Part shown: one piece after another, positions 5,974 to 59,296 of the stretch
How the letters are laid out: each line of letters opens with the position of its first letter
How positions within the stretch are numbered: the stretch's first letter is position 1
DNA from: a virus
Direction: 5' to 3' (one strand)
Virus record (IMG/VR): IMGVR_UViG_3300045988_168162
Coordinates: 1-64,000 of that record
DNA: 64,000 bases
Translations under genes and position numbers: made by a program
Notes under the pieces: model-generated
Told to the model about the DNA's origin: nothing
Database searches by the model: none
What the model saw: only the letters and a program-made list of their open reading frames with translations

Positions 5974-5986
5974 AGAATCACCTCCG

Positions 5987-6163
5987 TCAGATGAGGGACT
6001 GGAAGTTCTCCAGCTGGTAGGTCATGATGGACGACAAGAACAGCAGGTAGCTGAGTATGCCGATCTCTACATATTTATTGTCAGTCCGGAAGCTGATCAG
6101 CATGGCGATGGGAATGGAGAGCAGCTCTGCGAAAAATAGGATGATGTTGAAAATCTGGATCAC
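5987..6163 (-). CDS. small membrane protein (58 aa)
   Basis: Hydrophobic ORF. GTG start forms a GTGA overlap with the dnaE stop. Confidence 0.4.
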   Translation of the reverse strand: MIQIFNIILFFAELLSIPIAMLISFRTDNKYVEIGILSYLLFLSSIMTYQLENFQSLI

Positions 6164-9100
6164 CTCACATGGGAATATCTTGTAAGAAACTCGTTGAAGT
6201 CTGTTGTGGACTGCACCCACTGGTCGCCGTCCTTACTCCATTTACCCTCAGTATGAGTGTCGAGCACCTTGATGATCTCGCCTGGTTCGACAGGGTTATC
6301 GTCGAGGGTGCATGGACGGATCTTATAAGTGATGGTTTCGCCGGAGCAAAGCTGATAGAGGGTGATGTTCTTGTTTTTGTACTTGCCCTCGATAGCGGTG
6401 ACGTAGTGGTAGGTGGTGGCGAGGCGGGGGTTGGTGTATTGAAGGTAGCCGAGGTAGTCACTTTGCGCTTTTAGAATCTGCGTGACGCGAAGCTTTTCGT
6501 CCGGCATGTCGTTCCAGATTTCTTGCAATGCCGCATCGCAATCGAAATTCTTATAAGTTTTAAGCTTGTCTGTTGTCTCTGAATATTTCTTTATGTATTC
6601 GATATAGGGAGAATCAGTATCCTTTGGAAACTGTGTACGCCCATACAGCTGATTGCAGGCATCAATAAATTTAAGAATTTTGTTGCCGCCAGCAAATGGC
6701 GAGAAGTAATCCAGCAGAACAAGCGTTTCGATTTTGGCGGAATTCAGACTGCGAGTGTGCGACATTTCTTTCCAAAGAGAATAAAAATCGTTATACTTGC
6801 CGGTTTGATATAGCTTGTACAGATCATTGGCGCAGCCCTGACTTAGCCCCTTGATGGACAGCAGGGAAGGATCAATAGCGTGATTGGCTTTATCGGCAGT
6901 GAATTTACGATTATCATGCCCCCATTGGATTGGTCCCTCATGGATACCAAAGCCGCGAAGCATTTCGGATTTTAGGGAAGAGACTTTATCCTTTTTGCCC
7001 TTGTTAGAGAAATGCTGGAGACAGACCTCATAAAATTCATAGGGATAAGTAGCCTTTTGCCAGGCATTGTAAAGGGAATCATAGGCCATACAGCAGCTAT
7101 GGCTGGCATTGAAGGAATAGGCCGTGGCATCACTTATGATTTGCCAAATTTCACCAGAGACTTCTTCGGGAGTTTTACCGGACGTGCATTGACCTTTAAG
7201 CTTTTCGCACATTCCTGTGACAAACTGACTTTTTAGCGGGCGTACTTTTTCTGGATGTTTTTTCGCAATGTCTTTTATAATTCCATAGCAGCGGTCCATC
7301 GGGAATCCTGCAAAATTAAGAACAGACATAAGTTGTTCTTGGGTTAAAATGAAACTATAGGGGAACTCTTCCGTTTGCAAAATGGTATCCAAAGCCGGTA
7401 TTCCGTAAGAAAATGGCTCACGACTTTCAAATTTTGAGTACATAGACTTGAAGCCAGGACGAATAGCCGCGATAAAATTAGCAAGCTCGGAAACATTTTT
7501 TGGTTTATAGCGCAAGAGTTTTTGCGTTGTGGAAGCTCTCTCACATTGATTGACGCCGCAAGTTAAACCTTTAGAATAAATATTCCAGACGTCTGGATTA
7601 TCCTTGACCGCATCTGAAAGCTCATCTACCGTCAAAGGTTTCATTCCGATACGTTTAAAAACTGCATCTGTGAGGGCAACAGTATCAACGATCAGCCAGT
7701 CATTTTTAAGGAACTTGTATTTTTCTGCAACAGCACCATCAACAACAGTGGTGATATATTCCTTCTTGGTCGTTTCGCTCTTACATTTAATGAGGCCAAT
7801 TTGCCGCCGAATAGATCCCGCATAGAGCATATAGGCACAGGGGGCTTTGGATTTGGAAACGATCAATCCCCAATAAACTTCGCTTTTTTTGACGAGATCT
7901 TGGTATTCAGGATCAACATAATCATAGATGTTAATTTCATCTTTTTCGTCATCGTCAGCGTATTTCATGGCCAAGTCATATTTATCAATCTGGTCACTGA
8001 TTTTATTTGCAATTTCAAAATCCAGCTTTTTGGCACGGGCATACATTTTAAATGCTGCCTTCTTTTTCATGGTGCCAAAGGCGATCATGGGATAAGCGTG
8101 GTCTGCACCTAGAATTTCACGCTGGGCACGCTCAAATGGTTCCTGAGCATTGATGTTCTGGTCGATATCTGGAAGGCTATTCGTTTGAATAATTCGAGTT
8201 GTAGACAAGAATCGTTCTGGATATAGTTTGATTGGACTTTTAAAACGATCGACCTTACTGAATCCGCAGAGCGTATTGGTAAAATAACTCACGGCAGAAC
8301 CACGGCCAGTGTTGGTAATAATGCCGCCATACTCGATACCGCGCTTAACGATTTCATAGTCCATCAAAGGATAATCAACCATGCCGGTATCTTTGTAAGT
8401 GTAGACTTCCATTTTGACGCCGTCATAATAGCGCTGATAATCTTCCGGCGGAACATGCTGCATATACTCGCGGAATTTTTTGCTGATGAGTTTATTGTAG
8501 ATATGGAATTTTTCGTCTGGTGTTTTGTCCGGGTAGATGCTGGGAAGTTTACGGTTGGTCTCAAAAACCTCGCTTTGGTAATCCTCGAAATCACAGATCA
8601 AATCAGTATTTTTGATTGCCTTATCTACATCATCAGCAGAAATGATACCCTGTTCGGCAAAGCGTTTGCGGACTGTAACTTCATCTGGGTAGTCCATATA
8701 CCAGCCGTCCTCATCATCGTAATGAGTATTGCTGGCGGCAAGCAGCTCGTCACGTTCAATCGCCTGTTCAGGATAGATGTAATGGCTATCGAGTCCGACA
8801 ATCATCTGGATACCATATTTTTTAGACAGCTCCAGGATTCTGGCATTTAGCCGCTTTTGCTTATCCGTATTGTGTGCTTGGATTTCCAGCATGAAATTAT
8901 CTTTGAAATAGTTATGTAATTTGAGCACCAAATCATCGACATATTCAGGCTCGTATTGCCAGAACGCAACACAGGCGGAAGTTACAAAGACATCATTCTG
9001 CGGTAGAGAAAACAAAAGTTCTTCATCCAGACGGGGGCGGTAGTAGTAGCCATCCTCATTGGCCGTAGACAGAACGTCGTTGATACTCTCGCGGCCATTT

Positions 9101-30075: not shown

Positions 30076-30164
30076 GATAAATCACTCCTTTAAAATTATT
30101 TTTTTTTGATTGGCGCACAAAAGCGAGCTGCCCATCCCTGAGCGAGCTTTTTAGGTTTGCATTT

Positions 30165-30241
30165 GGTAACAAATTCATTAACTCGGATATGACCTGAGTT
30201 CGTTTTGCCGGGCTTAGATGGTTCCCCACAAAGGGTGACAC
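30165..30241 (-). ncRNA. copy A of a conserved structured-RNA module (4 copies in the window)
   Basis: GGTAACAAATTC + hairpin with invariant CGGATATGACCTG core and covarying outer stem + second hairpin + GGGTGACAC. Lies about 80 nt from tRNA-Thr. Strand inferred, not proven. Confidence 0.5.
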
Positions 30242-30321
30242 ATCGTGGCTGCCGACCACTATGTACTACGCCATTTGCTGTCTGCCGAAGCGGACGGAGA
30301 AATATGGATGACGAATCATCC

Positions 30322-30437: not shown

Positions 30438-31019
30438 TTAAGAGCGTTTATCGAGAACTTTCTCGTCCATGTAAGCATCGATCATTCGTTGCGTTTCTTC
30501 ATACGTGTGCTCACGGGCGTAACGGTTTACGTAGTTGATGCCGACACCCATGATCCTGGCAGCCTCGCGCCCAGTGACAGGAATCCTGTAATAATGTGTG
30601 GTGGATTTATGCTTTGAGTTGAGCCGCGTTGGAATCCAACGGCAATTCTCTGGGCAGTAATCCTTAGAAGAATCAATACGGTCAATGGACAGACCGGGTT
30701 TATACCCGTTTTGTAAAGACCAGAAAATAAATTCATCCGGGTGATAGAGCCATTCATCACAAATTCGGATGCCTTTTGCGCCATAGAATTTATAATCAGA
30801 TGCAGAAGTATCGTAACATCGGTCTTTCATTTTTAAGAAAGTTTTGGTAAGATGAGAATTTGAGACAGATGCTTTGGCAGCATGAATCGTAGGAAATCCA
30901 AAACGATCATAATGCGGGCATGTGTCATTTTTTAAATAATGAAAGTCACCAATAGACCGAATTGTTTTTGTGCCGCAGTAGACGCACTCGCCAACATAAA
31001 GTGTCCGATTGTTTTGCAC
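30438..31019 (-). CDS. homing-endonuclease-like protein (HNH/AP2-related family)
   Basis: MKDRCYD..YKFYGAKGIRICDEW .. F..W .. GYKPGLSIDRIDSSKDYCPENCRWIP, a pattern common in free-standing phage endonucleases. C-terminal HTH-like GREAARIMGVGINYV. Confidence 0.6.
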   Translation of the reverse strand: MQNNRTLYVGECVYCGTKTIRSIGDFHYLKNDTCPHYDRFGFPTIHAAKASVSNSHLTKTFLKMKDRCYDTSASDYKFYGAKGIRICDEWLYHPDEFIFWSLQNGYKPGLSIDRIDSSKDYCPENCRWIPTRLNSKHKSTTHYYRIPVTGREAARIMGVGINYVNRYAREHTYEETQRMIDAYMDEKVLDKRS

Positions 31020-31469: not shown

Positions 31470-33008
31470 TTATACGAATAAAATACCCGTATTTTTTGCA
31501 ACAAACCTGCACTTTCCTGCTGCAATTTTATTTGTATTTGTATCATAGTACGTTGTTGCTTTTCCATTTCGAGAAGATACAATCCCTTGCATTATATGAA
31601 TTTGCTTTTTGACAAGAAAAATACTTCCTGGATAATTACGGTTCGGATTCCTGTATGTTTGATGATGTTTTTCAACTTTTAGTTTGCAAACAGTATTTTG
31701 ATTTTTTTTACGAAATTCTTCCAAACTATCTACAACCTGTTCAACAGCCTTATGCCGATTAAATGCTACTTTTTTACCATTGAACGTATATATGCGACTC
31801 ATGTTTGCATTATTTAACGCCCTCCTATCGTGACGACGGAACTGTTTAAGTTCATACGGTGCACGACTGTTGATTGTACTATCACAAACATCGTTAGGCA
31901 AAACAGAACAGGCAATGCAATAGGCATCGAGCCAGTGGTCTTTGCTTATACCGTGTGCTGCACGGTAATCGTAGGTGCTTTTTCCCGTTGTTACGAAAAA
32001 GTGCTTTTGAAAAAGAGAACTTAATTCTTTCGTCAGTGCCGGAATGATTTGATTCAATACACTCAAAGCACCATATTTTTTATTGAGTCCTGTTTTCTTT
32101 TTGGCGAGTTTTTCTTGCCATGCAGTATCCTTATGTACGAGGTTATGATGCTTTGCGCATAAGCCAACGATATTGGCAATTGTGTTGCTGCCATTTTTAT
32201 GTTGCGGTACTACATGATGGTAATGTTCAATAGGTTTCTTACAAAACAAGCAGTGCTGTTCCTGCATTTCAGAAACAGCGCTCTCAAGATCCCCTTTTTG
32301 ATAGAGTGGACCCTGTTGGTACTGCCACTTCTTGATAACGGGATTATCAAGCTGCATGAAAGCAAATTTGTTAACCTCAAGCACAACATCACTGATGGGA
32401 AGGAATTTTTGAATTTTCTTAACCAAGTTGATGTGTGTTTTGAGCAACTGATTTGCAGTAGGCGTAAGCCAGCCTTCCGGTCTTGTGCGATTGTTGAACT
32501 TTGCTTCTTTGTTCTTGATGCCAATGCAAAGGACTTCTTTCTCGCAACCCGGAAGATGGCGCTTAATGACGCCAATTTCTTTTGCACGCTTGCTGACGCT
32601 GCCATTTTGGGCAGTGTCTTGCTTCACGCACTTTTTAGAAATAGTGCCATTGGCTTTTGCTCTCCGCTGACGACGGCATCGTCTACCATTGGTACGTCTT
32701 GCACGGCGGGAATCCTTACGCTTTTTCATCAATTTCGGAATTTCCTTGTTACGGGTTTCCAGATGTGCGGTAAAGACTGCCGTGCCGTCCGTTTTAACAA
32801 CAGCAACACCGATATTGGTTCTGCCGGGGTCGATGCCCAAGTAAAGCGGTTGCACCACATCGTCAGTTTCATACAACAGTTGAATGGTAAACGGCTTTGT
32901 TCTTACGGCTCGTGCTTTCTGCTCTTTAAGAAGATGGCGTACATGCCCACAGCGAGTCGTAGGCATTAAAGGTTTACCGTCTTTATTAAGCACATATACA
33001 GTGGACAT
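31470..33008 (-). CDS. iscB: IscB RNA-guided nuclease (512 aa)
   Basis: PLMP motif (DGKPLMPT), RuvC-I LGIDPGRTNIG, Arg-rich bridge helix RRARRTNGRRCRRQRR, HNH (CLFCKK..HHVVP..N..LCAKHHNLVH), RuvC-III DHWLDAYC. ATG 33008 follows AAAGGAGG. Confidence 0.85.
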   Translation of the reverse strand: MSTVYVLNKDGKPLMPTTRCGHVRHLLKEQKARAVRTKPFTIQLLYETDDVVQPLYLGIDPGRTNIGVAVVKTDGTAVFTAHLETRNKEIPKLMKKRKDSRRARRTNGRRCRRQRRAKANGTISKKCVKQDTAQNGSVSKRAKEIGVIKRHLPGCEKEVLCIGIKNKEAKFNNRTRPEGWLTPTANQLLKTHINLVKKIQKFLPISDVVLEVNKFAFMQLDNPVIKKWQYQQGPLYQKGDLESAVSEMQEQHCLFCKKPIEHYHHVVPQHKNGSNTIANIVGLCAKHHNLVHKDTAWQEKLAKKKTGLNKKYGALSVLNQIIPALTKELSSLFQKHFFVTTGKSTYDYRAAHGISKDHWLDAYCIACSVLPNDVCDSTINSRAPYELKQFRRHDRRALNNANMSRIYTFNGKKVAFNRHKAVEQVVDSLEEFRKKNQNTVCKLKVEKHHQTYRNPNRNYPGSIFLVKKQIHIMQGIVSSRNGKATTYYDTNTNKIAAGKCRFVAKNTGILFV

Positions 33009-33240
33009 ATACGCCACCTCCTTTACGATAAGTCTCCCCTGCCGAAGCGGGAGGTTATGTTTCCCTTGGCTAGGTAGCAGCTTAGTAGTGTTGCAAGCTG
33101 GGAAAACCTGCAAGTACATCTGCTATCTTGATGTACAAAAGTACATCTGCCTGTGATATTGAAGGAACTTAGTGGAATGATATTATTTTATTAAAGTTCT
33201 TCAATACCCTACGACGATGTGCCGTTTCGGAAACCCGGAT
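33009..33240 (-). ncRNA. candidate IscB omega-RNA (HEARO-like) scaffold
   Basis: 232-nt non-coding leader immediately 5' of iscB with several hairpins (GATGTAC-TTTT-GTACATC; TAGCAG..CTGCTA; CTCCCGC-TTCG-GCAGGGGAG). The position matches known IscB omega-RNAs. Boundaries unknown. Confidence 0.45.
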
Positions 33241-33485: not shown

Positions 33486-34030
33486 ATAATAAGAGAGAAC
33501 CTACCCCTGGATGACTCGAACGTCCGTTTTCAGCCTGCGCTGCTGTCCTTGCCTATTAGACGAAGCGGCAAGCTCTCTCTGAATTGGATTGAAAGTGTTT
33601 TCTTCTTGGCTCCCATTTCTATAGCCAGGATTCCGATAGTGGCGAACTATCCTAGGTGTTGGTTTATCTGCTAATGTTTACAGACTCTATAGCAGACCAC
33701 ATGCGAGTGGTGAAACCTTTGGCACCTGCCGGTTATCTGCAGGCACACGCTTTCAATCTTGGCGGGGCACTATCCCCAGCCTGTTGGTGGGACCTGGACC
33801 TTGCGGCCAGCCCCCGAGTTGTGCGAGACCTAGATCTGAGCGAGGCGAATCCTGCCTTTGCCGTTTGGCATCTCGCGGTAACGGAACCTGAATTCATGCG
33901 GATTTCACTGGGCGATATCTAATAAATAGACACCGAAACCGTTCATCATCCGAAGCAGCTGGATTCCGTTTTGCCCTGATTCCGGCTTTCGGCAGGTGAT
34001 CGGCCTGCTATAGAACCAGGGCAATGGTGC
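33486..34030 (-). ncRNA. long structured non-coding region between tRNA-Pro and RNA module B
   Basis: No credible ORF. Many local and long-range helices, e.g. 33971-33978/34017-34024 (8 bp), a GNRA-capped hairpin at 33794-33810, and a tRNA T-arm-like GGACG-TTCGAGT-CATCC at 33509-33525. Confidence 0.4.
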
Positions 34031-34319
34031 GGAATGAATCTTGACCAGACAGCCCGCGATTGGTATGTATAATGCAATGGGTGTGGCGCATGGTCTGGGT
34101 GACAAATTTGAACACTCGGATATGACCTGAGTGTGGCGCGTGTTGCAAGGGAATTCTCGTGCCTGGAGGCAGCTGCACATTTCGATTATACTGACAAAGT
34201 AGTGGCATAATCCACTGGACAACCTGGGCCGTGACTGTCATTAACCCTTGGCAGAAACCAGGTATTACTTTCGCGAGAATCCTGTGGCGCTGCTGTGCGC
34301 TGTTGGTAAGATTCATTCC
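34031..34319 (-). ncRNA. copy B of the conserved structured-RNA module, closed by a 12-bp helix
   Basis: GGAATGAATCTT (34031-34042) pairs with AAGATTCATTCC (34308-34319). The conserved module GGGTGACAAATTTGAACACTCGGATATGACCTGAGTG lies at 34097-34133. Abuts tRNA-Gly. Confidence 0.5.
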
Positions 34320-34321
34320 GT

Positions 34322-34396
34322 TGGAGCGGCTGAGGGGCGTCGAACCCCCGTCCCCAGCTTGGAAGGCTGGTATACTGGCCGTTGTACGACAGCCGC
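34322..34396 (-). tRNA. tRNA-Gly (UCC)
   Basis: Acceptor GCGGCTG/CAGCCGC, anticodon arm CCAGC-CTTCCAA-GCTGG, T arm GGGGG-TTCGACG-CCCCT, encoded CCA. Confidence 0.85.
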
Positions 34397-34576
34397 ATAA
34401 TAGGGCGGATTATTTTTACATGCTACCGCCTTCGCATGTTGCCCATATACCAGCCTTGAGGACAGCGAACTGTCGCACAGCCGGACATATGACCTTGTAC
34501 CAAGGATTTTTAAGAAACGTTGAGCGTGTGAACCGTAATCATTAAGCGTTGACGAAAAATAAACTTTGAATCTTGA

Positions 34577-55362: not shown

Positions 55363-55653
55363 TTAGTATTCGTCCGGGAAGAGGACCGTGGTTACGGAAC
55401 GGTCCCACTCGGTGATGATCCAGATGCGCCAATCGGGATGATCGGCGGGGTTATAGACGCTGAACAGGCGATCATTGCCAGAGGTAAGAGCTTCATTATT
55501 GAGCTGGGCATCCTCGGCACAGCAATCACCCCAGTCAGCGTTTTCGTGGCGGGTGATACACTGATACACATAGGTAAAGAAATTACGGTCATCATTCATC
55601 TTGGCGGCGATTTCATCCGTGACTACAAGAGAGCCAAGCTTGAATTTACTCAT
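55363..55653 (-). CDS. conserved plasmid/phage small protein (96 aa)
   Basis: ADWGDCCAEDAQLNNEAL .. RIWIITEWDRSVTTVLFPDEY. I recognise this pattern as a recurrent mobile-element family of unknown function. Confidence 0.5.
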   Translation of the reverse strand: MSKFKLGSLVVTDEIAAKMNDDRNFFTYVYQCITRHENADWGDCCAEDAQLNNEALTSGNDRLFSVYNPADHPDWRIWIITEWDRSVTTVLFPDEY

Positions 55654-55817
55654 ACAGAAGCACTTCCTTTCGGGTTGGCCGCGAAGAACTCATCCTCGGG
55701 GCAGAAGGGGCAATACCAGGAACCGCCGCGGTAGAAAGCGCCGGGTGTGTCCGGCAGACATTCGTAACAGACGGTGCCGTCTACAAAAGCAAGGGTGTAG
55801 GTGATGGATTTCATCAT
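55650..55817 (-). CDS. zinc-ribbon mini-protein (55 aa, below track cutoff)
   Basis: MMKSITYTLAFVDGTVCYEC..WYCPFCPEDE. ATGA overlap with the next gene. AAAGGAAA SD. Confidence 0.4.
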   Translation of the reverse strand: MMKSITYTLAFVDGTVCYECLPDTPGAFYRGGSWYCPFCPEDEFFAANPKGSASV

Positions 55818-55845: not shown

Positions 55846-56190
55846 TGTGTGATGTAAGCTGATAAGGTGGCTGCCTGGACCAGGAGGTGGTCCCAACTCG
55901 TTATTCAGAAGCTGCTGCTCAATTTTAGGAAGTCCTGGTACGATTTTCTGGGTACGAAGCACTGTTGATTGGACGTGTAAGTGAGCTAATCGCTATGGAC
56001 TCTGACGCTTTTGCCAGTCGTTAGTTGGCAGTAAACTCTGAATCTTCGCTGAAGAATCACTAGGATCGCGATGGCCATCGGCGACTCGCCGATCGTGGTG
56101 GGTGGACTGGGTAACAAATTCATACTCTCGGATATGACCTGAGAGTTTTTGCCTTGAACTACAAAGCAAAAGTAAACCTTACATAACACA
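55846..56190 (-). ncRNA. copy C of the structured-RNA element (345 nt) downstream of the RT gene
   Basis: Closed by a 13-bp inverted repeat with one mismatch (56178-56190 vs 55846-55858). Conserved module at 56109-56146. Same 5' layout as copy D. Confidence 0.55.
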
Positions 56191-56398: not shown

Positions 56399-57589
56399 TC
56401 AAGCTGCTTTGGGCTTGAGATCGTCAGAGATACAGGTGAGAAGATCGGCACCATATCTGGCGTTGTACTTTTGGATGACACCGGCAATGGTGGCGGGTTC
56501 TACACTAAGGTAGTAGCTGATATTGCCGCGGAACTTTTGGAGATCCTCTTCGTCCCATTTTTTGCCGTTGCGGCGGTCTTTGAAATAGGTTTCGATGGTA
56601 GCTTTAAGGATTTTGTGGTTTCGATAACCAACGGTAATATCGCCATCCTTATTGAGCATCAGACCGAGCATCCAGTTACGACCGGCGCGGGTGCCGAAGT
56701 GGGTCTTTTCGGTATTCAAGGTAAAGGGAGCATCGAGTTCATGAAGCATGGCGATCAGTTCCCGCTCGACCTTGCGGTAGTTGAAGAAGACCCGGCAGGA
56801 GATATGAATATCATCGGCATAGCGGGTGTAACAGATGCGGTCTGTGATGGGCGTGCCATCTGGGTTGACTTTGCCGCTTTGGAACTGGTTGAGCAGGCGG
56901 GCAAACTTATGGTCGAAGGGAATCATCATGACATTGGTGATGAAAGGGGAGAACGGGGTGCCCTGTGGCAGGCCGTTATTGAGAAACGCCAGGCTTAAAG
57001 CGCGGCGAAGCTCCCTGCGGCCGGTGGGGTCTGCCAGGATCAGGTTGAAGGGATAGATCTCTTCCATCTGTTTGAAGACAAAGTGCGGTGTGGTGGATGG
57101 GAAAAAGCCGTGGAAATCATAATGGCAGAAGTACCAGCTGCGGAACCGCTGATGCTTGATAACGGCATCCTTGGTGGAGCGGCCATTGACATAGGCAAAA
57201 GCGCAGGTGTGGTGGTCGGCAAACATCCAGCCGGACATCATATCCTTGAGCTGAGCCAATGCCTTTTTGAGTTCCGGGTGCGGGGCATCAATGGGACGCA
57301 TCTTGCCGCCGGTCTTTTTCGGGATCTCGAAATGATCGTAGAGTTCCCATTTGTTGGGGTAATCGATCAGATCCTTATAGCAGGTATTGAACATCTTGAG
57401 CTGGCTGATCATGGCGTCCAGGCAAGTGATTTTCATAATGCGCTCAGGAACTTTGTCGCATACAACGGTGCGGGTGGAGCCGTGACCGCCGGAACGTAAG
57501 GAATCCAGCGGAATATCGACACCGAGCATAAGTTCCTCGAACGTGATTTGACGAACGGTTTCGGGGGTATTGTAAGTTATGTATACCAT
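56399..57589 (-). CDS. reverse transcriptase, retron/Abi-like type (396 aa)
   Basis: FEIPKKTGGKMRPIDAP (RT1-2), NGLPQGTPFSPFITN (RT4), YTRYADDIHIS (YADD box in a retron-like context). Start at MVYITYN (ATG 57589). The longer track ORF runs into structured non-coding RNA. Confidence 0.85.
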   Translation of the reverse strand: MVYITYNTPETVRQITFEELMLGVDIPLDSLRSGGHGSTRTVVCDKVPERIMKITCLDAMISQLKMFNTCYKDLIDYPNKWELYDHFEIPKKTGGKMRPIDAPHPELKKALAQLKDMMSGWMFADHHTCAFAYVNGRSTKDAVIKHQRFRSWYFCHYDFHGFFPSTTPHFVFKQMEEIYPFNLILADPTGRRELRRALSLAFLNNGLPQGTPFSPFITNVMMIPFDHKFARLLNQFQSGKVNPDGTPITDRICYTRYADDIHISCRVFFNYRKVERELIAMLHELDAPFTLNTEKTHFGTRAGRNWMLGLMLNKDGDITVGYRNHKILKATIETYFKDRRNGKKWDEEDLQKFRGNISYYLSVEPATIAGVIQKYNARYGADLLTCISDDLKPKAA

Positions 57590-57607
57590 AGTGGTGTACC
57601 TCGATTG

Positions 57608-57944
57608 TGTTTGTGATCTTGAAGGAATGATGCTGATCTTGCGAAGCTGATCAGCTTCCTGGATTAGCTCCATACAGTGGTGGAATTGGCTTAAAACTCC
57701 AATCAGACAACTGACTGATGTCCAATCTGCGGCTGCCAAGTCTATTACATGACCAATCGACATCGATTGCCCGCTAAGTTAGCTTAAAATGCCCTTGATG
57801 TGAGCGGCGGAACTCGGCGATTCTTGTGGCACCCCCAGATGCGCCTGGCGCGTGCCTGCCCGGTCTGGGTAACAAATTCGTACTCTCGGATATGACCTGA
57901 GAGTCGTTGCGATTTACAAAATGCAACGGTAAACATCACAAACA
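57608..57944 (-). ncRNA. copy D of the structured-RNA element (337 nt) immediately upstream of the RT (retron msr-msd-like position)
   Basis: Closed by a perfect 10-bp inverted repeat (57935-57944 vs 57608-57617) that ends 19 nt before the RT ATG. Conserved module at 57867-57904. TATAAT box at about 57968. Confidence 0.55.
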
Positions 57945-57993: not shown

Positions 57994-58677
57994 TTACATG
58001 GCCGTGATAGCTCCTTCCGTGTCGAGATTGAAAGGCGCAACCAGGATCAAATCCTTGATCTTGCCATCCGTGACAAACTTTTGGAAGTTGATAACGGTCA
58101 TGGTGGCAGCCATGCGAACCGTGGGCGCTACACCAAGGACCTCGCCACAGGCGGAACGGGGCACCTCAGCGGTCGCTTCCTCGTGGGTGAAGTTCATACT
58201 GTCGAGCAGTGCTTTCTTGGCCTGCGGGTCACGCCAGTCGGCTGCATAAAGCTGGGCATCAAACAATGCCGTGCGGACATCAAACATCGCCTTGATATTG
58301 GCGTTGTACTGATTGCGCTTGACAATGTCGCGCCGGATCGCAATATCATCCACGGCCAGGAACACATAGCCTGCCAGCGGCTCACCATGCCAGCCATCGG
58401 GTTTGACCTTGACGGTTTCATTACAGGTCAGATTGATATTACCAAGAATATCTCGCAAGGCATCGACCTTTTTCATGCCGACATGGTCATCGAAGAACAT
58501 CTGGTTGACGAGGTTTTTCTCCTCGACCTTGTCCATATCCCAAAGGGTGAACTTGGTGAGACCGTAGCGGGCCAGCAGCTCGGCGATGGTAGAACCGACA
58601 GAACCGCAGCCAATAATGTGAATGGGAGCGGTGATCTTGGCGGGGTCGAAAACCTCGCGGCTCTTATTTAAATTCAT
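57994..58677 (-). CDS. ThiF/MoeB/E1-like adenylyltransferase (227 aa)
   Basis: Rossmann IIGCGSVGS plus DMDKVEEKNLVNQ. Start at MNLNKSRE after AGGAGGTCCCCG. Confidence 0.75.
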   Translation of the reverse strand: MNLNKSREVFDPAKITAPIHIIGCGSVGSTIAELLARYGLTKFTLWDMDKVEEKNLVNQMFFDDHVGMKKVDALRDILGNINLTCNETVKVKPDGWHGEPLAGYVFLAVDDIAIRRDIVKRNQYNANIKAMFDVRTALFDAQLYAADWRDPQAKKALLDSMNFTHEEATAEVPRSACGEVLGVAPTVRMAATMTVINFQKFVTDGKIKDLILVAPFNLDTEGAITAM

Positions 58678-59296
58678 CGGGGACCTCCTGACCGTAGGTG
58701 TACCAATCGTACTGCTTATAGTGGTTGTACTGGTTGAAATAGATGGGCGGCTGAACGACCGGCAGCGATTCGACCTTGACCATGGTTTTGACTTCATCCA
58801 GGAAGGACGGGTCAAAAGTATCGTAGGTAAGAAGAACTTCGTCCTGTTCACGAATCGTGCCATGATCGTAGATGTGGGCTGTGTAGTAGAGATCCTTGTT
58901 CCAGATCATGAAGATATAGAACTGGTTATCCGGGATGTGGCGTTCCTCCTGGCTTTGGATATCCGTACCGGAGGGGTGCGTGTCCATATAGACGTGGCTG
59001 TGACCGTGGTAGTGCAGGTCATCAAAGTTGGGATGCTCAAAGTACCAGCGGCCATATTCCTCCTGATCGACCACCACCGTAGCAGCGGTGACCGTTTGCG
59101 GATAGACCGTGATATCATAGACCTCCCAGCCATCCTGGATGGGGCGGGTAAGACCATGCCAGCCGATTTCGGTGTTATACTCGTTCAGCAGAGCGAGCTG
59201 TTTGTTCCAGGCATTGGCCGTGAAGTGGATATGAATGGGTTTCTTTGCGGGTGCCTTGACGGCGGGGGCCTTTTCATTCGGGCTCGTTTTGGACAT
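58664..59296 (-). CDS. JAB/MPN (JAMM) metalloprotease-like protein
   Basis: EIGWHG .. HSHVYMDTHPSGTD matches E..HxH-x7-S-xx-D. Overlaps the E1-like gene by 14 nt. Confidence 0.75.
   Translation of the reverse strand: MSKTSPNEKAPAVKAPAKKPIHIHFTANAWNKQLALLNEYNTEIGWHGLTRPIQDGWEVYDITVYPQTVTAATVVVDQEEYGRWYFEHPNFDDLHYHGHSHVYMDTHPSGTDIQSQEERHIPDNQFYIFMIWNKDLYYTAHIYDHGTIREQDEVLLTYDTFDPSFLDEVKTMVKVESLPVVQPPIYFNQYNHYKQYDWYTYGQEVPDEFK

What the first reader, a model, noticed from the sequence alone, without database searches (positions are those of the whole stretch)
34031..34319. Copy B of the RNA module: a 289-nt element closed by a perfect 12-bp helix, fused to the 3' side of tRNA-Gly
GGAATGAATCTT (34031) pairs with AAGATTCATTCC (34308) and brackets the conserved module (34097-34133). 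The helix ends 2 nt from the tRNA-Gly CCA end. Compared with copies C and D, the module sits at the opposite end of the bracketed element, as if permuted. A TATAAT box lies at about 34186 in minus sense. The tight tRNA linkage of copies A and B suggests co-processing by RNase P/Z or tRNA-dependent function.
Basis: seen in the sequence. Interest (0 to 1): 0.6.

Follow-up and report, generated by a model that had tools for sequence, protein, structure and literature searches.

The report
tRNA-linked retron-type RNA in gut phage
The 291-nt element directly after tRNA-Gly is a real, conserved structured RNA and one of four paralogous retron-type template RNAs of a 147-kb gut phage that encodes one retron reverse transcriptase; this copy sits inside the tRNA operon, so tRNA processing enzymes probably cut it free.

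Summary
The inverted repeat is real and is 13 bp perfect (34308-34320 / 34030-34042). It extends to about 22 bp with two bulges, starts 1 nt after the tRNA-Gly CCA, and encloses the conserved hairpin.

A 12-bp repeat alone is not rare: simulations give about 1.6 per window. The context is what makes it significant.

- **Same layout in all four copies.** On the transcribed minus strand each reads: helix arm a1, unpaired G, hairpin hp2, hairpin hp1 (loop GGUCAUAUCC), the 12-mer GAAUUUGUUACC, a region I call Y, helix arm a2.
- **Link to the reverse transcriptase.** Copy D lies directly upstream of a retron-type RT. RT relatives down to 44% identity keep this layout with covarying helices.
- **Not permuted.** B has a long, fast-evolving hp2 (about 130 nt) and a short Y (about 45 nt). 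C and D have the reverse proportions.
- **Conserved in relatives.** In the lineage whose RT is 62% identical, the orthologous element fills the spacer between tRNA-Gly and tRNA-Thr. There 8 of 13 helix pairs changed on both sides.
- **TATAAT.** It is not conserved.

Best reading: an orphan retron non-coding RNA released by tRNA processing and used in trans by the RT. No expression data could be obtained. The scan had already flagged copies C and D of this genome as a phage retron.

The parts
34322..34396 (-). tRNA-Gly (anticodon UCC) with encoded CCA; its 3' end lies 1 nt from the element
   Evidence: ARAGORN; Rfam tRNA at 56.6 bits
34030..34320 (-). Copy B as a whole: a 291-nt structured RNA read on the minus strand, a1 to a2
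   Evidence: Minimum-free-energy fold has z = -3.5 against shuffles. Consensus folds of 3 and of 10 natural variants.
34308..34320 (-). a1: 5' arm of the closing helix (CGGAAUGAAUCUU), 13 bp perfect with a2
   Evidence: Invariant in 10 variants, apart from one C-A mismatch caused by a G-to-A change in the partner arm a2 of L229. In the ortholog of the 62% lineage, 8 of 13 pairs are changed on both sides.
34030..34042 (-). a2: 3' arm of the closing helix (AAGAUUCAUUCCG)
34299..34307 (-). Inner extension of a1 (ACCAACAGC). It pairs with GCUGU-C-UGGU at 34044-34053 across two bulged C residues.
   Evidence: The inner bulged C (between GCUGU and UGGU) is A in L227 and in the partial copy L230 with no loss of pairing.
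34298..34298 (-). Unpaired G directly 3' of the a1 helix; candidate branching or priming guanosine
   Evidence: Read from the sequence. A G stands in the same place in copies A (30266), C (56177) and D (57934), and in the RT-linked RNAs of every RT lineage inspected. The function is inferred.
34150..34282 (-). HP2: long irregular hairpin domain closed by GGAUUCUCG / CGAGAAUUC. This is the fast-evolving part of B.
   Evidence: By eye about 70% identical between two allele groups, while the flanks are almost identical. Three compensatory pairs among three sequences. The inner pairing is uncertain: the 10-sequence consensus differs.
34112..34134 (-). hp1: the conserved hairpin (ACACUC-A-GG UCAUAU CC GAGUGU), the core of the 'module'
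   Evidence: On 27 distinct copies, 99.1% of cells are paired and 4 of 8 pairs changed on both sides. Model R1 scores 61.6 bits here.
34098..34109 (-). Conserved 12-mer AAAUUUGUCACC (consensus GAAUUUGUUACC), 2 nt after hp1
34054..34097 (-). Y: 44-nt stretch between the 12-mer and a2. It is the position homologue of the retron msd (template) region and is nearly invariant within the lineage.
   Evidence: Alignment of 10 variants. The assignment as template is inferred from position.
34185..34190 (-).
   Evidence: It reads AGTAAT in 8 of the 10 distinct sequences of this element. The scan found no minus-strand promoter-like site inside B.
30111..30273 (-). Paralogue A: a1 UGGCGUA (30267-30273), G 30266, hp1 30180-30200, 12-mer 30165-30176, a2 UGCGCCA (30111-30117). 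It starts 48 nt after tRNA-Thr.
   Evidence: A G-to-A change in relatives turns a U-G pair of the helix into U-A.
55846..56190 (-). Paralogue C: a1 56178-56190, G 56177, hp2 56147-56171, hp1 56124-56146, long variable Y, a2 55846-55858. It lies upstream of a 55-aa ORF.
57609..57943 (-). Paralogue D: a1 57935-57943, G 57934, hp2 57906-57927, hp1 57882-57904, 12-mer 57868-57879, about 250-nt Y, a2 57609-57617. It lies immediately upstream of the RT.
56399..57598 (-). Retron-type reverse transcriptase (399 aa from the ATG at 57598)
   Evidence: Pfam RVT_1. PADLOC RT_II-A at 2.6e-45. NCBIfam retron_St85_RT at 172 bits, below the 235-bit cut-off. Most named PDB hits, including the best, are retron RTs, and none bears another family's name.

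Best explanation
Copy B is an 'orphan' retron-type non-coding RNA (the msr/msd kind) of a phage-encoded retron.

It is transcribed on the minus strand as part of the tRNA operon, directly 3' of tRNA-Gly. I infer that normal tRNA end-processing separates it from the tRNA. In the 62% lineage, RNase P cleavage at the downstream tRNA-Thr would also define its 3' end.

The freed RNA folds so that the 13-22 bp terminal helix (a1/a2) brings the unpaired G at 34298 next to the 3' end of the Y region. The phage RT, encoded about 22 kb away, would recognise hp1 and the adjacent 12-mer, which are shared by all four copies. It would then prime from that G and copy the short Y region into a single-stranded DNA (msDNA) of about 45-55 nt.

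- **Shown here:** the RNA-level structure, the paralogy with the RT-adjacent RNA, the conserved tRNA linkage, and the co-variation of hp1 with RT lineage.
- **Inferred:** transcription, processing, RT binding in trans, cDNA synthesis, and any biological role. Such roles might be a decoy or sensor DNA, or titration of the RT.
For: 1. **RT identity.** The RT at 56399-57598 matches retron RT profiles, and its PDB relatives are retron RTs.
2. **Retron layout upstream of the RT.** Copy D, directly upstream of the RT, has inverted repeats a1/a2, an unpaired G after a1, two stem-loops, a long template-like region, then the ribosome-binding site and the RT. The same layout stands upstream of RT homologues at 62% and 44-46% identity. 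Their a1/a2, hp2 and hp1 sequences differ but stay complementary.
3. **hp1 is a real hairpin.** On 27 distinct copies, 99.1% of cells are paired and 4 of 8 pairs changed on both sides. None of 500 shuffles reached the observed covariation score or the percentage paired.
4. **B shares the core and the order.** It has hp1, the 12-mer, a terminal helix and a G after a1, in the same order as A, C and D.
5. **hp1 tracks the RT lineage.** In a 45% lineage both the RT-linked RNA and two orphan copies 11 kb away carry that lineage's own loop, GGCCAAGCC. Each orphan has its own complementary a1/a2 pair.
6. **The closing helix of B is conserved with covariation.** The ortholog behind tRNA-Gly in the 62% lineage uses AACAGAAUAACUUCAU / AUGAGUUUAUUCUGUU. 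Eight of 13 pairs are changed on both sides and still pair. One position is U-G in some variants and U-A in others.
7. **The tRNA linkage is conserved.** Every one of the 14 further copies whose 5' end is on the contig starts right after the CCA of tRNA-Gly(tcc); three more are cut at that end. In the 62% lineage the element ends 5-6 nt before tRNA-Thr.
8. **Co-transcription is plausible.** The consensus scan found no terminator-like site and no promoter-like site on the minus strand between tRNA-Gly and B.
9. **HP2 keeps pairing through compensatory changes while its sequence diverges**.
Against: - No expression, processing or cDNA evidence.
- B is about 22 kb from the RT, unlike classical retrons, so trans use is an assumption.
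- In several genomes of the 62% lineage the B-type hp1 is split by an insertion of about 190 nt while the RT stays intact. There, at least, this copy is dispensable.
- In the 62% ortholog no G directly follows the helix.
- The inner fold of HP2 and Y is not settled: the 3- and 10-sequence consensus folds differ.
- A 45%-lineage genome has a helix-closed spacer after tRNA-Gly without any recognisable hp1. Structured spacers behind this tRNA may therefore exist independently of the RT.
- The RT scores below NCBIfam's cut-off for the St85 family.
Confidence: 0.6

Rival explanations
1. B is a structured spacer or processing module of the tRNA operon. It might be a stable RNA or an insulator that helps tRNA maturation, or a binding site for some other phage RNA-binding protein. 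It is not a substrate of the RT. hp1 would then be a shared protein-binding hairpin reused in several transcripts.
For: - A and B lie beside tRNAs, and weaker hp1-like hairpins lie after tRNA-Ile in the 62% lineage.
- A helix-closed spacer without hp1 follows tRNA-Gly in a 45%-lineage genome.
- B-type hp1 is disrupted in some genomes without loss of the RT.
- From memory: phage T4 also carries stable RNAs of unknown function in its tRNA cluster.
Against: - hp1 plus the 12-mer is the same motif that sits at a fixed place upstream of the RT in every lineage, and it changes together with the RT lineage.
- B also keeps the a1/a2 helix and the following G, which a mere protein-binding hairpin would not need.
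Confidence: 0.22
2. B is a decaying, non-functional duplicate of the retron RNA that happened to land next to a tRNA gene.
For: - The hp1 of the B-type copy is interrupted in several 62%-lineage genomes.
- HP2 evolves fast.
- The 12-mer deviates from the consensus in B (AAAUUUGUCACC).
Against: - The helix, hp1, 12-mer and Y are invariant or nearly so in 10 natural variants, while HP2 diverges by about 30%.
- The closing helix is kept through 8 double changes between lineages.
- HP2 changes are partly compensatory.
- The position right after tRNA-Gly is kept in two lineages whose RTs are only 62% identical.
Confidence: 0.1
3. The 13-bp inverted repeat marks a DNA-level mobile element (MITE-like terminal inverted repeats), or it is a chance repeat, and not an RNA helix.
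For: - Perfect terminal inverted repeats around an element of about 290 bp, in several copies.
- Chance 12-mers of this kind occur about 1.6 times per window in simulations.
Against: - No target-site duplication at the ends (sequence).
- The terminal repeats differ between copies while the interior hairpin is conserved, the opposite of a MITE family.
- U-G to U-A variation fits pairing in the minus-sense RNA only.
- All copies share the direction of transcription.
- Helix covariation across lineages.
Confidence: 0.04

Closest known systems
Retron msr/msd non-coding RNA (retrons of the Ec78/Ec83/St85 RT clade, types I-A and II-A)
   Same: - Terminal inverted repeats a1/a2 with an unpaired G right after a1.
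- Stem-loops in the 5' part and a template-like 3' part.
- For copy D, a position immediately upstream of a retron-type RT.
   Different: - B is about 22 kb from the RT and embedded in a tRNA operon.
- One RT is accompanied by four such RNAs.
- The carrier is a 147-kb phage with terminal repeats, not a bacterial defence island.
- No classical effector gene was identified next to the RT. The neighbours are ThiF/E1-like and JAB-like genes.
- B has an unusually long second hairpin and a short template region.
- msDNA production is untested.
Spacer-derived RNAs of tRNA operons: the 3'ETS-leuZ sponge RNA of E. coli, and the stable 'species 1 and 2' RNAs (rnaC, rnaD) of the phage T4 tRNA cluster. 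Both are recalled from memory and were not checked here.
   Same: A stable, structured RNA encoded directly beside tRNA genes, co-transcribed with them and released by the tRNA processing enzymes.
   Different: Those RNAs have no link to a reverse transcriptase and share no sequence or fold with B. B carries the recognition hairpin of a retron RNA.
Retron-like RTs reported in viral metagenomes (clade RTC3 in PMC13681634)
   Same: That survey notes retron-like RTs in viral contigs, many from digestive systems.
   Different: The passages searched (occurrences of 'retron') mention no associated RNAs, no multiple copies and no tRNA linkage.

Membership tests
Retron non-coding RNA (msr/msd) | Lies immediately upstream of, and on the same strand as, a retron RT | tested here: not met
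   B is on the same strand but about 22 kb downstream of the RT. Copy D meets this feature: a2 at 57609-57617, RT start at 57598.
Retron non-coding RNA (msr/msd) | Terminal inverted repeats a1/a2 that form a helix closing the RNA | tested here: met
   13 bp perfect, about 22 bp with two bulges. Covaries with the 62%-lineage ortholog: 8 of 13 pairs changed on both sides.
Retron non-coding RNA (msr/msd) | Conserved unpaired guanosine at the inner end of a1 (branch or priming site) | tested here: inconclusive
   G34298 follows the extended helix, as in A, C, D and all RT-linked copies inspected. The 62% ortholog has U at that place. Branching itself cannot be tested here.
Retron non-coding RNA (msr/msd) | msr stem-loop(s) specific to the cognate RT | tested here: met
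   hp1 plus the 12-mer is shared with the RT-adjacent copy (R1: 61.6 bits for B, 65.8 for D). hp1 covaries, and its loop changes with RT lineage in both linked and orphan copies. RT binding is inferred.
Retron non-coding RNA (msr/msd) | The msd region is reverse transcribed into msDNA | not testable with these tools
   No experimental data.
Retron RT (St85 / type II-A family) | Score above the curated family cut-off | tested here: not met
   NF038233 scores 172.2 bits against a cut-off of 235. The best PADLOC model is RT_II-A at 2.6e-45. It is a retron-clade RT but not a member of a named family by that threshold.
Diversity-generating retroelement (template/variable repeats) | DGR-type RT and a TR/VR repeat pair at the 3' end of a target gene | tested here: not met
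   The RT matches retron models rather than DGR ones, and it carries QGTPFSP. From my own knowledge that is the retron / group II form of the motif. The repeats are the 40-90-nt hairpin module only. The elements are non-coding, because indels between relatives break every frame.
MITE-like mobile element | Terminal inverted repeats shared among copies, plus a target-site duplication | tested here: not met
   The termini differ between copies A-D and between lineages. No duplication flanks B.
Any Rfam family | Match at or near a family's gathering score | tested here: not met
   Only tRNAs and DUF3800-XI (outside B) were found at the gathering threshold and at E <= 1.

The most novel reading that the evidence does not exclude
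Large gut phages run a 'one RT, many templates' retron. Several interchangeable template RNAs are scattered over the genome, and some are punctuated by tRNAs so that host RNase P and tRNA 3'-end enzymes excise them. Each would give a different small single-stranded DNA during infection, for instance as decoys or sensors in the contest with host defences. B would be the first retron RNA whose ends are made by tRNA processing.
Probability: 0.3. Interest if true: 0.8.

Novelty: new variant of a known kind. Interest (0 to 1): 0.62.

Why it matters
Retrons are known as bacterial defence systems with one RNA next to one RT. Here a widespread family of about 140-150-kb human-gut phages carries a retron-type RT with several paralogous RNAs. 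One of them is built into a tRNA operon.

If the RT uses these RNAs in trans, three things would follow:
- retron RTs can be multiplexed naturally;
- tRNA processing can supply correctly ended retron RNAs, which is of practical interest for retron-based DNA production and genome editing;
- phages themselves use msDNA, which bears on the open question of what retron-like RTs do in viruses.

Tried and rejected
- **Rfam.** No family covers B at the gathering threshold or at E <= 1.
- **Terminator reading of the hairpin on the plus strand.** Only copy C has a T run after it.
- **Promoter reading.** The TATAAT inside B is not conserved, and no minus-strand promoter-like site lies in B.
- **DGR reading.** I considered it when the RT and a tail-fibre gene appeared. 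I rejected it because the RT matches retron models, there are no TR/VR repeats, and the elements are non-coding.
- **MITE or chance repeat.** See the rival explanations.
- **Coding potential.** The 102-aa minus-strand ORF 34008-34316 is broken by indels that are not multiples of three in relatives.
- **Antisense or guide idea.** blastn-short of all four elements against the phage genome gave only chance-level 10-14-mers.
- **More B-type lineages.**
  - Two IMG/VR pattern scans and one metagenome scan found only the window lineage and the 62% lineage. The other hits of the loose pattern lack the hairpin stem and tRNA neighbours and look like chance.
  - ENA and Logan contigs carrying RTs of 70% and 85% identity could not be searched beyond 10 kb.
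  - In a 45%-lineage genome no hp1 was found near tRNAs.
- **MAFFT alignment of the two helix types.** It put the arms out of register, so the pair count was done on an ungapped alignment anchored at the tRNA end.

Full report
**Setting.** The window is the first 64 kb of a single 146,780-bp viral record with direct terminal repeats. Almost all genes and all six tRNAs of the window lie on the minus strand. I therefore read the element as minus-sense RNA.

**The observation.**
- GGAATGAATCTT (34031-34042) and its complement (34308-34319) are present, and each occurs only once.
- One more C-G pair makes the repeat 13 bp perfect, at 34030-34042 / 34308-34320.
- In the RNA the helix goes on as ACCA/UGGU and ACAGC/GCUGU across two bulged C residues.
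- tRNA-Gly(tcc) ends with its CCA at 34322, so a single nucleotide separates the tRNA from the helix.
- The conserved module is inside: covariance model R1 hits 34090-34137. It has exactly four copies in the genome, all on one strand.
- A caution: a perfect 12-mer inverted repeat with 20-400 nt between its arms is expected about 1.6 times per 64 kb in first-order Markov simulations. The repeat alone proves little.

**What the module is.** Read in minus sense it has three parts:
- a hairpin, hp1, with a lower stem of 5-6 bp, one bulged base, a GG/CC upper stem and the loop UCAUAU;
- two spacer bases;
- the 12-mer GAAUUUGUUACC.

On 27 distinct copies from this phage and its relatives, 99.1% of cells are paired and 4 of the 8 pairs show changes on both sides. 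None of 500 shuffles reached the observed covariation score or the percentage paired.

**Link to a reverse transcriptase.** Copy D lies directly upstream of a 399-aa ORF (56399-57598, minus strand). The evidence that this is a retron-type RT:
- Pfam RVT_1.
- The best PADLOC model is RT_II-A at 2.6e-45.
- NCBIfam retron_St85_RT scores 172 bits, below its cut-off of 235.
- Most named PDB relatives, including the best, are retron RTs such as Ec83, Ec78, St85 family, Kva2, Ec67 and Ec86, and none bears another family's name.

Copy D has the classical retron layout. In order it reads:
- a1 (57935-57943);
- an unpaired G (57934);
- hp2, hp1 and the 12-mer;
- a region of about 250 nt;
- a2 (57609-57617);
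- the ribosome-binding site and the RT.

The RT family is large. A protein search found 1,268 homologues at E <= 1e-20, and 526 viral loci encode a relative. Most sit on gut-phage contigs of about 140-150 kb. I read the 400 nt upstream of the RT in lineages at 62% and 44-46% identity. The layout is the same everywhere, while a1/a2, hp2 and the stem of hp1 differ in sequence but stay complementary. Examples of a1/a2 pairs are AUCGUGAU/AUCACGAU, GUUUGUGUU/AACACAAAC and UUUCUGUAAU/AUUACAGAAA. A G always follows a1. This makes the D-type RNA a retron msr/msd-type RNA with good confidence.

**hp1 follows the RT lineage.** In a 45% lineage the RT-linked copy has the loop GGCCAAGCC. Orphan copies about 11 kb away carry the same lineage-specific loop; in the two genomes read in full, two stand in tandem. 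Their lower stem is compensated (CGUUU/AAACG instead of CACUU/AAGUG). Each has its own complementary a1/a2 pair: AUUGAGAU/AUCUCAAU and AUUUGUGAU/AUCACAAAU. Extra copies that co-vary with the RT are what one expects if hp1 is the RT's recognition element.

**Anatomy of B, and why it is not permuted.** In minus sense B reads, in order:

| Part | Coordinates | Note |
|---|---|---|
| a1 | 34320-34308 | extension 34307-34299 |
| G | 34298 | unpaired |
| linker | 34283-34297 | 15 nt |
| HP2 | 34282-34150 | closed by GGAUUCUCG/CGAGAAUUC |
| linker | 34135-34149 | 15 nt |
| hp1 | 34134-34112 | |
| spacer | 34110-34111 | UC |
| 12-mer | 34109-34098 | AAAUUUGUCACC |
| Y | 34097-34054 | 44 nt |
| a2 | 34053-34030 | extension plus arm |

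. Copies A, C and D have the same order. A and B have a long second hairpin and a short Y (about 45-50 nt). C and D have a short hp2 (22-25 nt) and a long Y (about 250 nt).

**Comparative evidence for B.**
- *Within the lineage.* Ten distinct natural variants come from three IMG/VR relatives and nine metagenome contigs. All that reach the 5' end start right after the CCA of tRNA-Gly(tcc).
  - The helix, hp1, 12-mer and Y are invariant or nearly so. There is one C-A mismatch in L229 and a few changes in Y in L227 and L229.
  - HP2 falls into two allele groups that are, by eye, about 70% identical, with further changes concentrated in loops.
  - Among three sequences, three HP2 pairs change on both sides and stay paired. 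The 10-sequence consensus proposes a partly different inner fold, so only the base helix of HP2 is secure.
  - HP2 alleles and the Y alleles of copy D assort independently among relatives. G012 has the window's D type but the other B type. This points to recombination of modules.
- *Between lineages.* In the 62% lineage the tRNA-Gly(tcc) gene is followed by an orthologous element of about 205 nt. In G002 this gene is nearly identical to the window's, differing at a handful of positions when compared by eye.
  - The element has the same hp1 and a similar stretch in front of it (GCAAACGGCUCCACACC).
  - It ends 5-6 nt before tRNA-Thr.
  - Its closing helix is AACAGAAUAACUUCAU / AUGAGUUUAUUCUGUU.
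  - Aligned from the tRNA end, 8 of 13 pairs differ on both sides from the window's helix and still pair. One position is U-G in some variants and U-A in others.

**Against an essential role.** In at least two complete genomes of the 62% lineage (G002, G003) the hp1 of the B-type copy is split by an insertion of about 190 nt, flanked by an 8-nt duplication (ATATCCAG). The RT remains intact in those genomes. In the 62% ortholog the base after the helix is U, not G. A 45%-lineage genome has a different helix-closed spacer after tRNA-Gly with no hp1.

**Transcription and processing.** This part is inferred. The consensus scan shows no terminator-like and no promoter-like site on the minus strand between tRNA-Gly and B. 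The nearest upstream promoter-like site is at 34674-34646. The helix abuts the CCA, and in the other lineage it also abuts the 5' end of tRNA-Thr. Release by tRNA end-processing is therefore the simplest route. RNase P at a downstream tRNA is established biochemistry. The enzyme for the 5' side is open, because the CCA is encoded.

**Mechanism proposed.** The excised RNA folds on a1/a2. The RT binds hp1 and the 12-mer, primes from the 2'-OH of G34298, copies Y from the a2 side towards the 12-mer, and stops there. The product would be a short branched msDNA. Nothing beyond the RNA architecture is shown. I put 0.6 on 'retron-type RNA that the RT uses or at least binds', and about 0.85 on the weaker claim 'conserved structured RNA paralogous to the RT-linked RNA'.

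**Novelty.** Two full-text searches found no description of phage retrons with several RNAs or with tRNA-linked RNAs. A metagenomic survey mentions retron-like RTs in viruses; the passages I searched (occurrences of 'retron') mention no associated RNAs. An earlier follow-up of this scan (e1-3759422) had already read copies C and D of this same genome as a phage retron with several variable template RNAs. I reached the same reading before seeing that note. This report adds four points:
- the tRNA-embedded copy;
- its ortholog and helix covariation in a second lineage;
- the common domain order, which removes the permutation idea;
- the co-variation of hp1 with RT lineage.

Noticed in passing
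window 33765-33814 (-): Rfam DUF3800-XI RNA motif at 44.3 bits (gathering score 37.8). It lies about 215 nt downstream of B in the same ORF-poor stretch between B and tRNA-Pro, and no DUF3800 gene was seen nearby.
   Followed up: no
window 33960-34029 (-): Right after a2 another conserved long-range helix (UUGCCCUG ... CAGGGCAA) encloses small hairpins. The 545 nt between B and tRNA-Pro look like further structured RNA.
   Followed up: no
window 34441-34457 vs 34363-34379: The leader upstream of tRNA-Gly is complementary (17 nt, 88%, with a 12-nt perfect core) to the D-arm and anticodon-stem region inside tRNA-Gly. This could form an alternative precursor structure.
   Followed up: no
window 30438-31019 (-) and 31470-33119 (-): An HNH endonuclease gene and an RRXRR+HNH (IscB-like) gene sit between the tRNAs. 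Copies A and B are 3,933 nt apart here but 1,952 and 2,433 nt apart in two close relatives, and the sequence upstream of tRNA-Thr is replaced there. These genes therefore look like recent insertions into the tRNA array.
   Followed up: partly
L163 2578-2770 (G002) and L165 (G003), 62% lineage: The hp1 hairpin of the B-type copy is split by an insertion of about 190 nt flanked by an 8-nt direct duplication, ATATCCAG. The opposite strand of the insert carries the 3' end of a small ORF. Its nature is unknown.
   Followed up: partly
window 57994-58863 (-) and 58664-59296 (-): A ThiF/E1-like gene and a gene with a JAMM/JAB-type motif (HGHSHV...S..D) lie directly upstream of copy D and the RT. ThiF is also next to the RT on contigs whose RTs are 70% and 85% identical.
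   Followed up: partly
L233 (G006:C1:61500-68600), minus sense 5974-6240: In a 45%-lineage phage the spacer after tRNA-Gly(tcc) also starts, right after the CCA, with a helix arm (UGCCGCAAGGC). It pairs about 250 nt downstream (GCUUUGCGGCA). No hp1-like hairpin of that lineage is present.
   Followed up: partly
L163 1304-1525 and equivalents in G001-G005: Two weaker hp1-like hairpins (18-24 bits) lie about 150 and 320 nt after a 93-nt tRNA-Ile(tat) call in the 62% lineage, upstream of a gene. One of them is followed by AUUACAUUUGUUAC. They may be counterparts of the window's copy A.
   Followed up: partly
window 55650-55817 (-): Copy C is followed by a 55-aa ORF with two Cys pairs (CYEC ... 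CPFC), where copy D has the RT.
   Followed up: no
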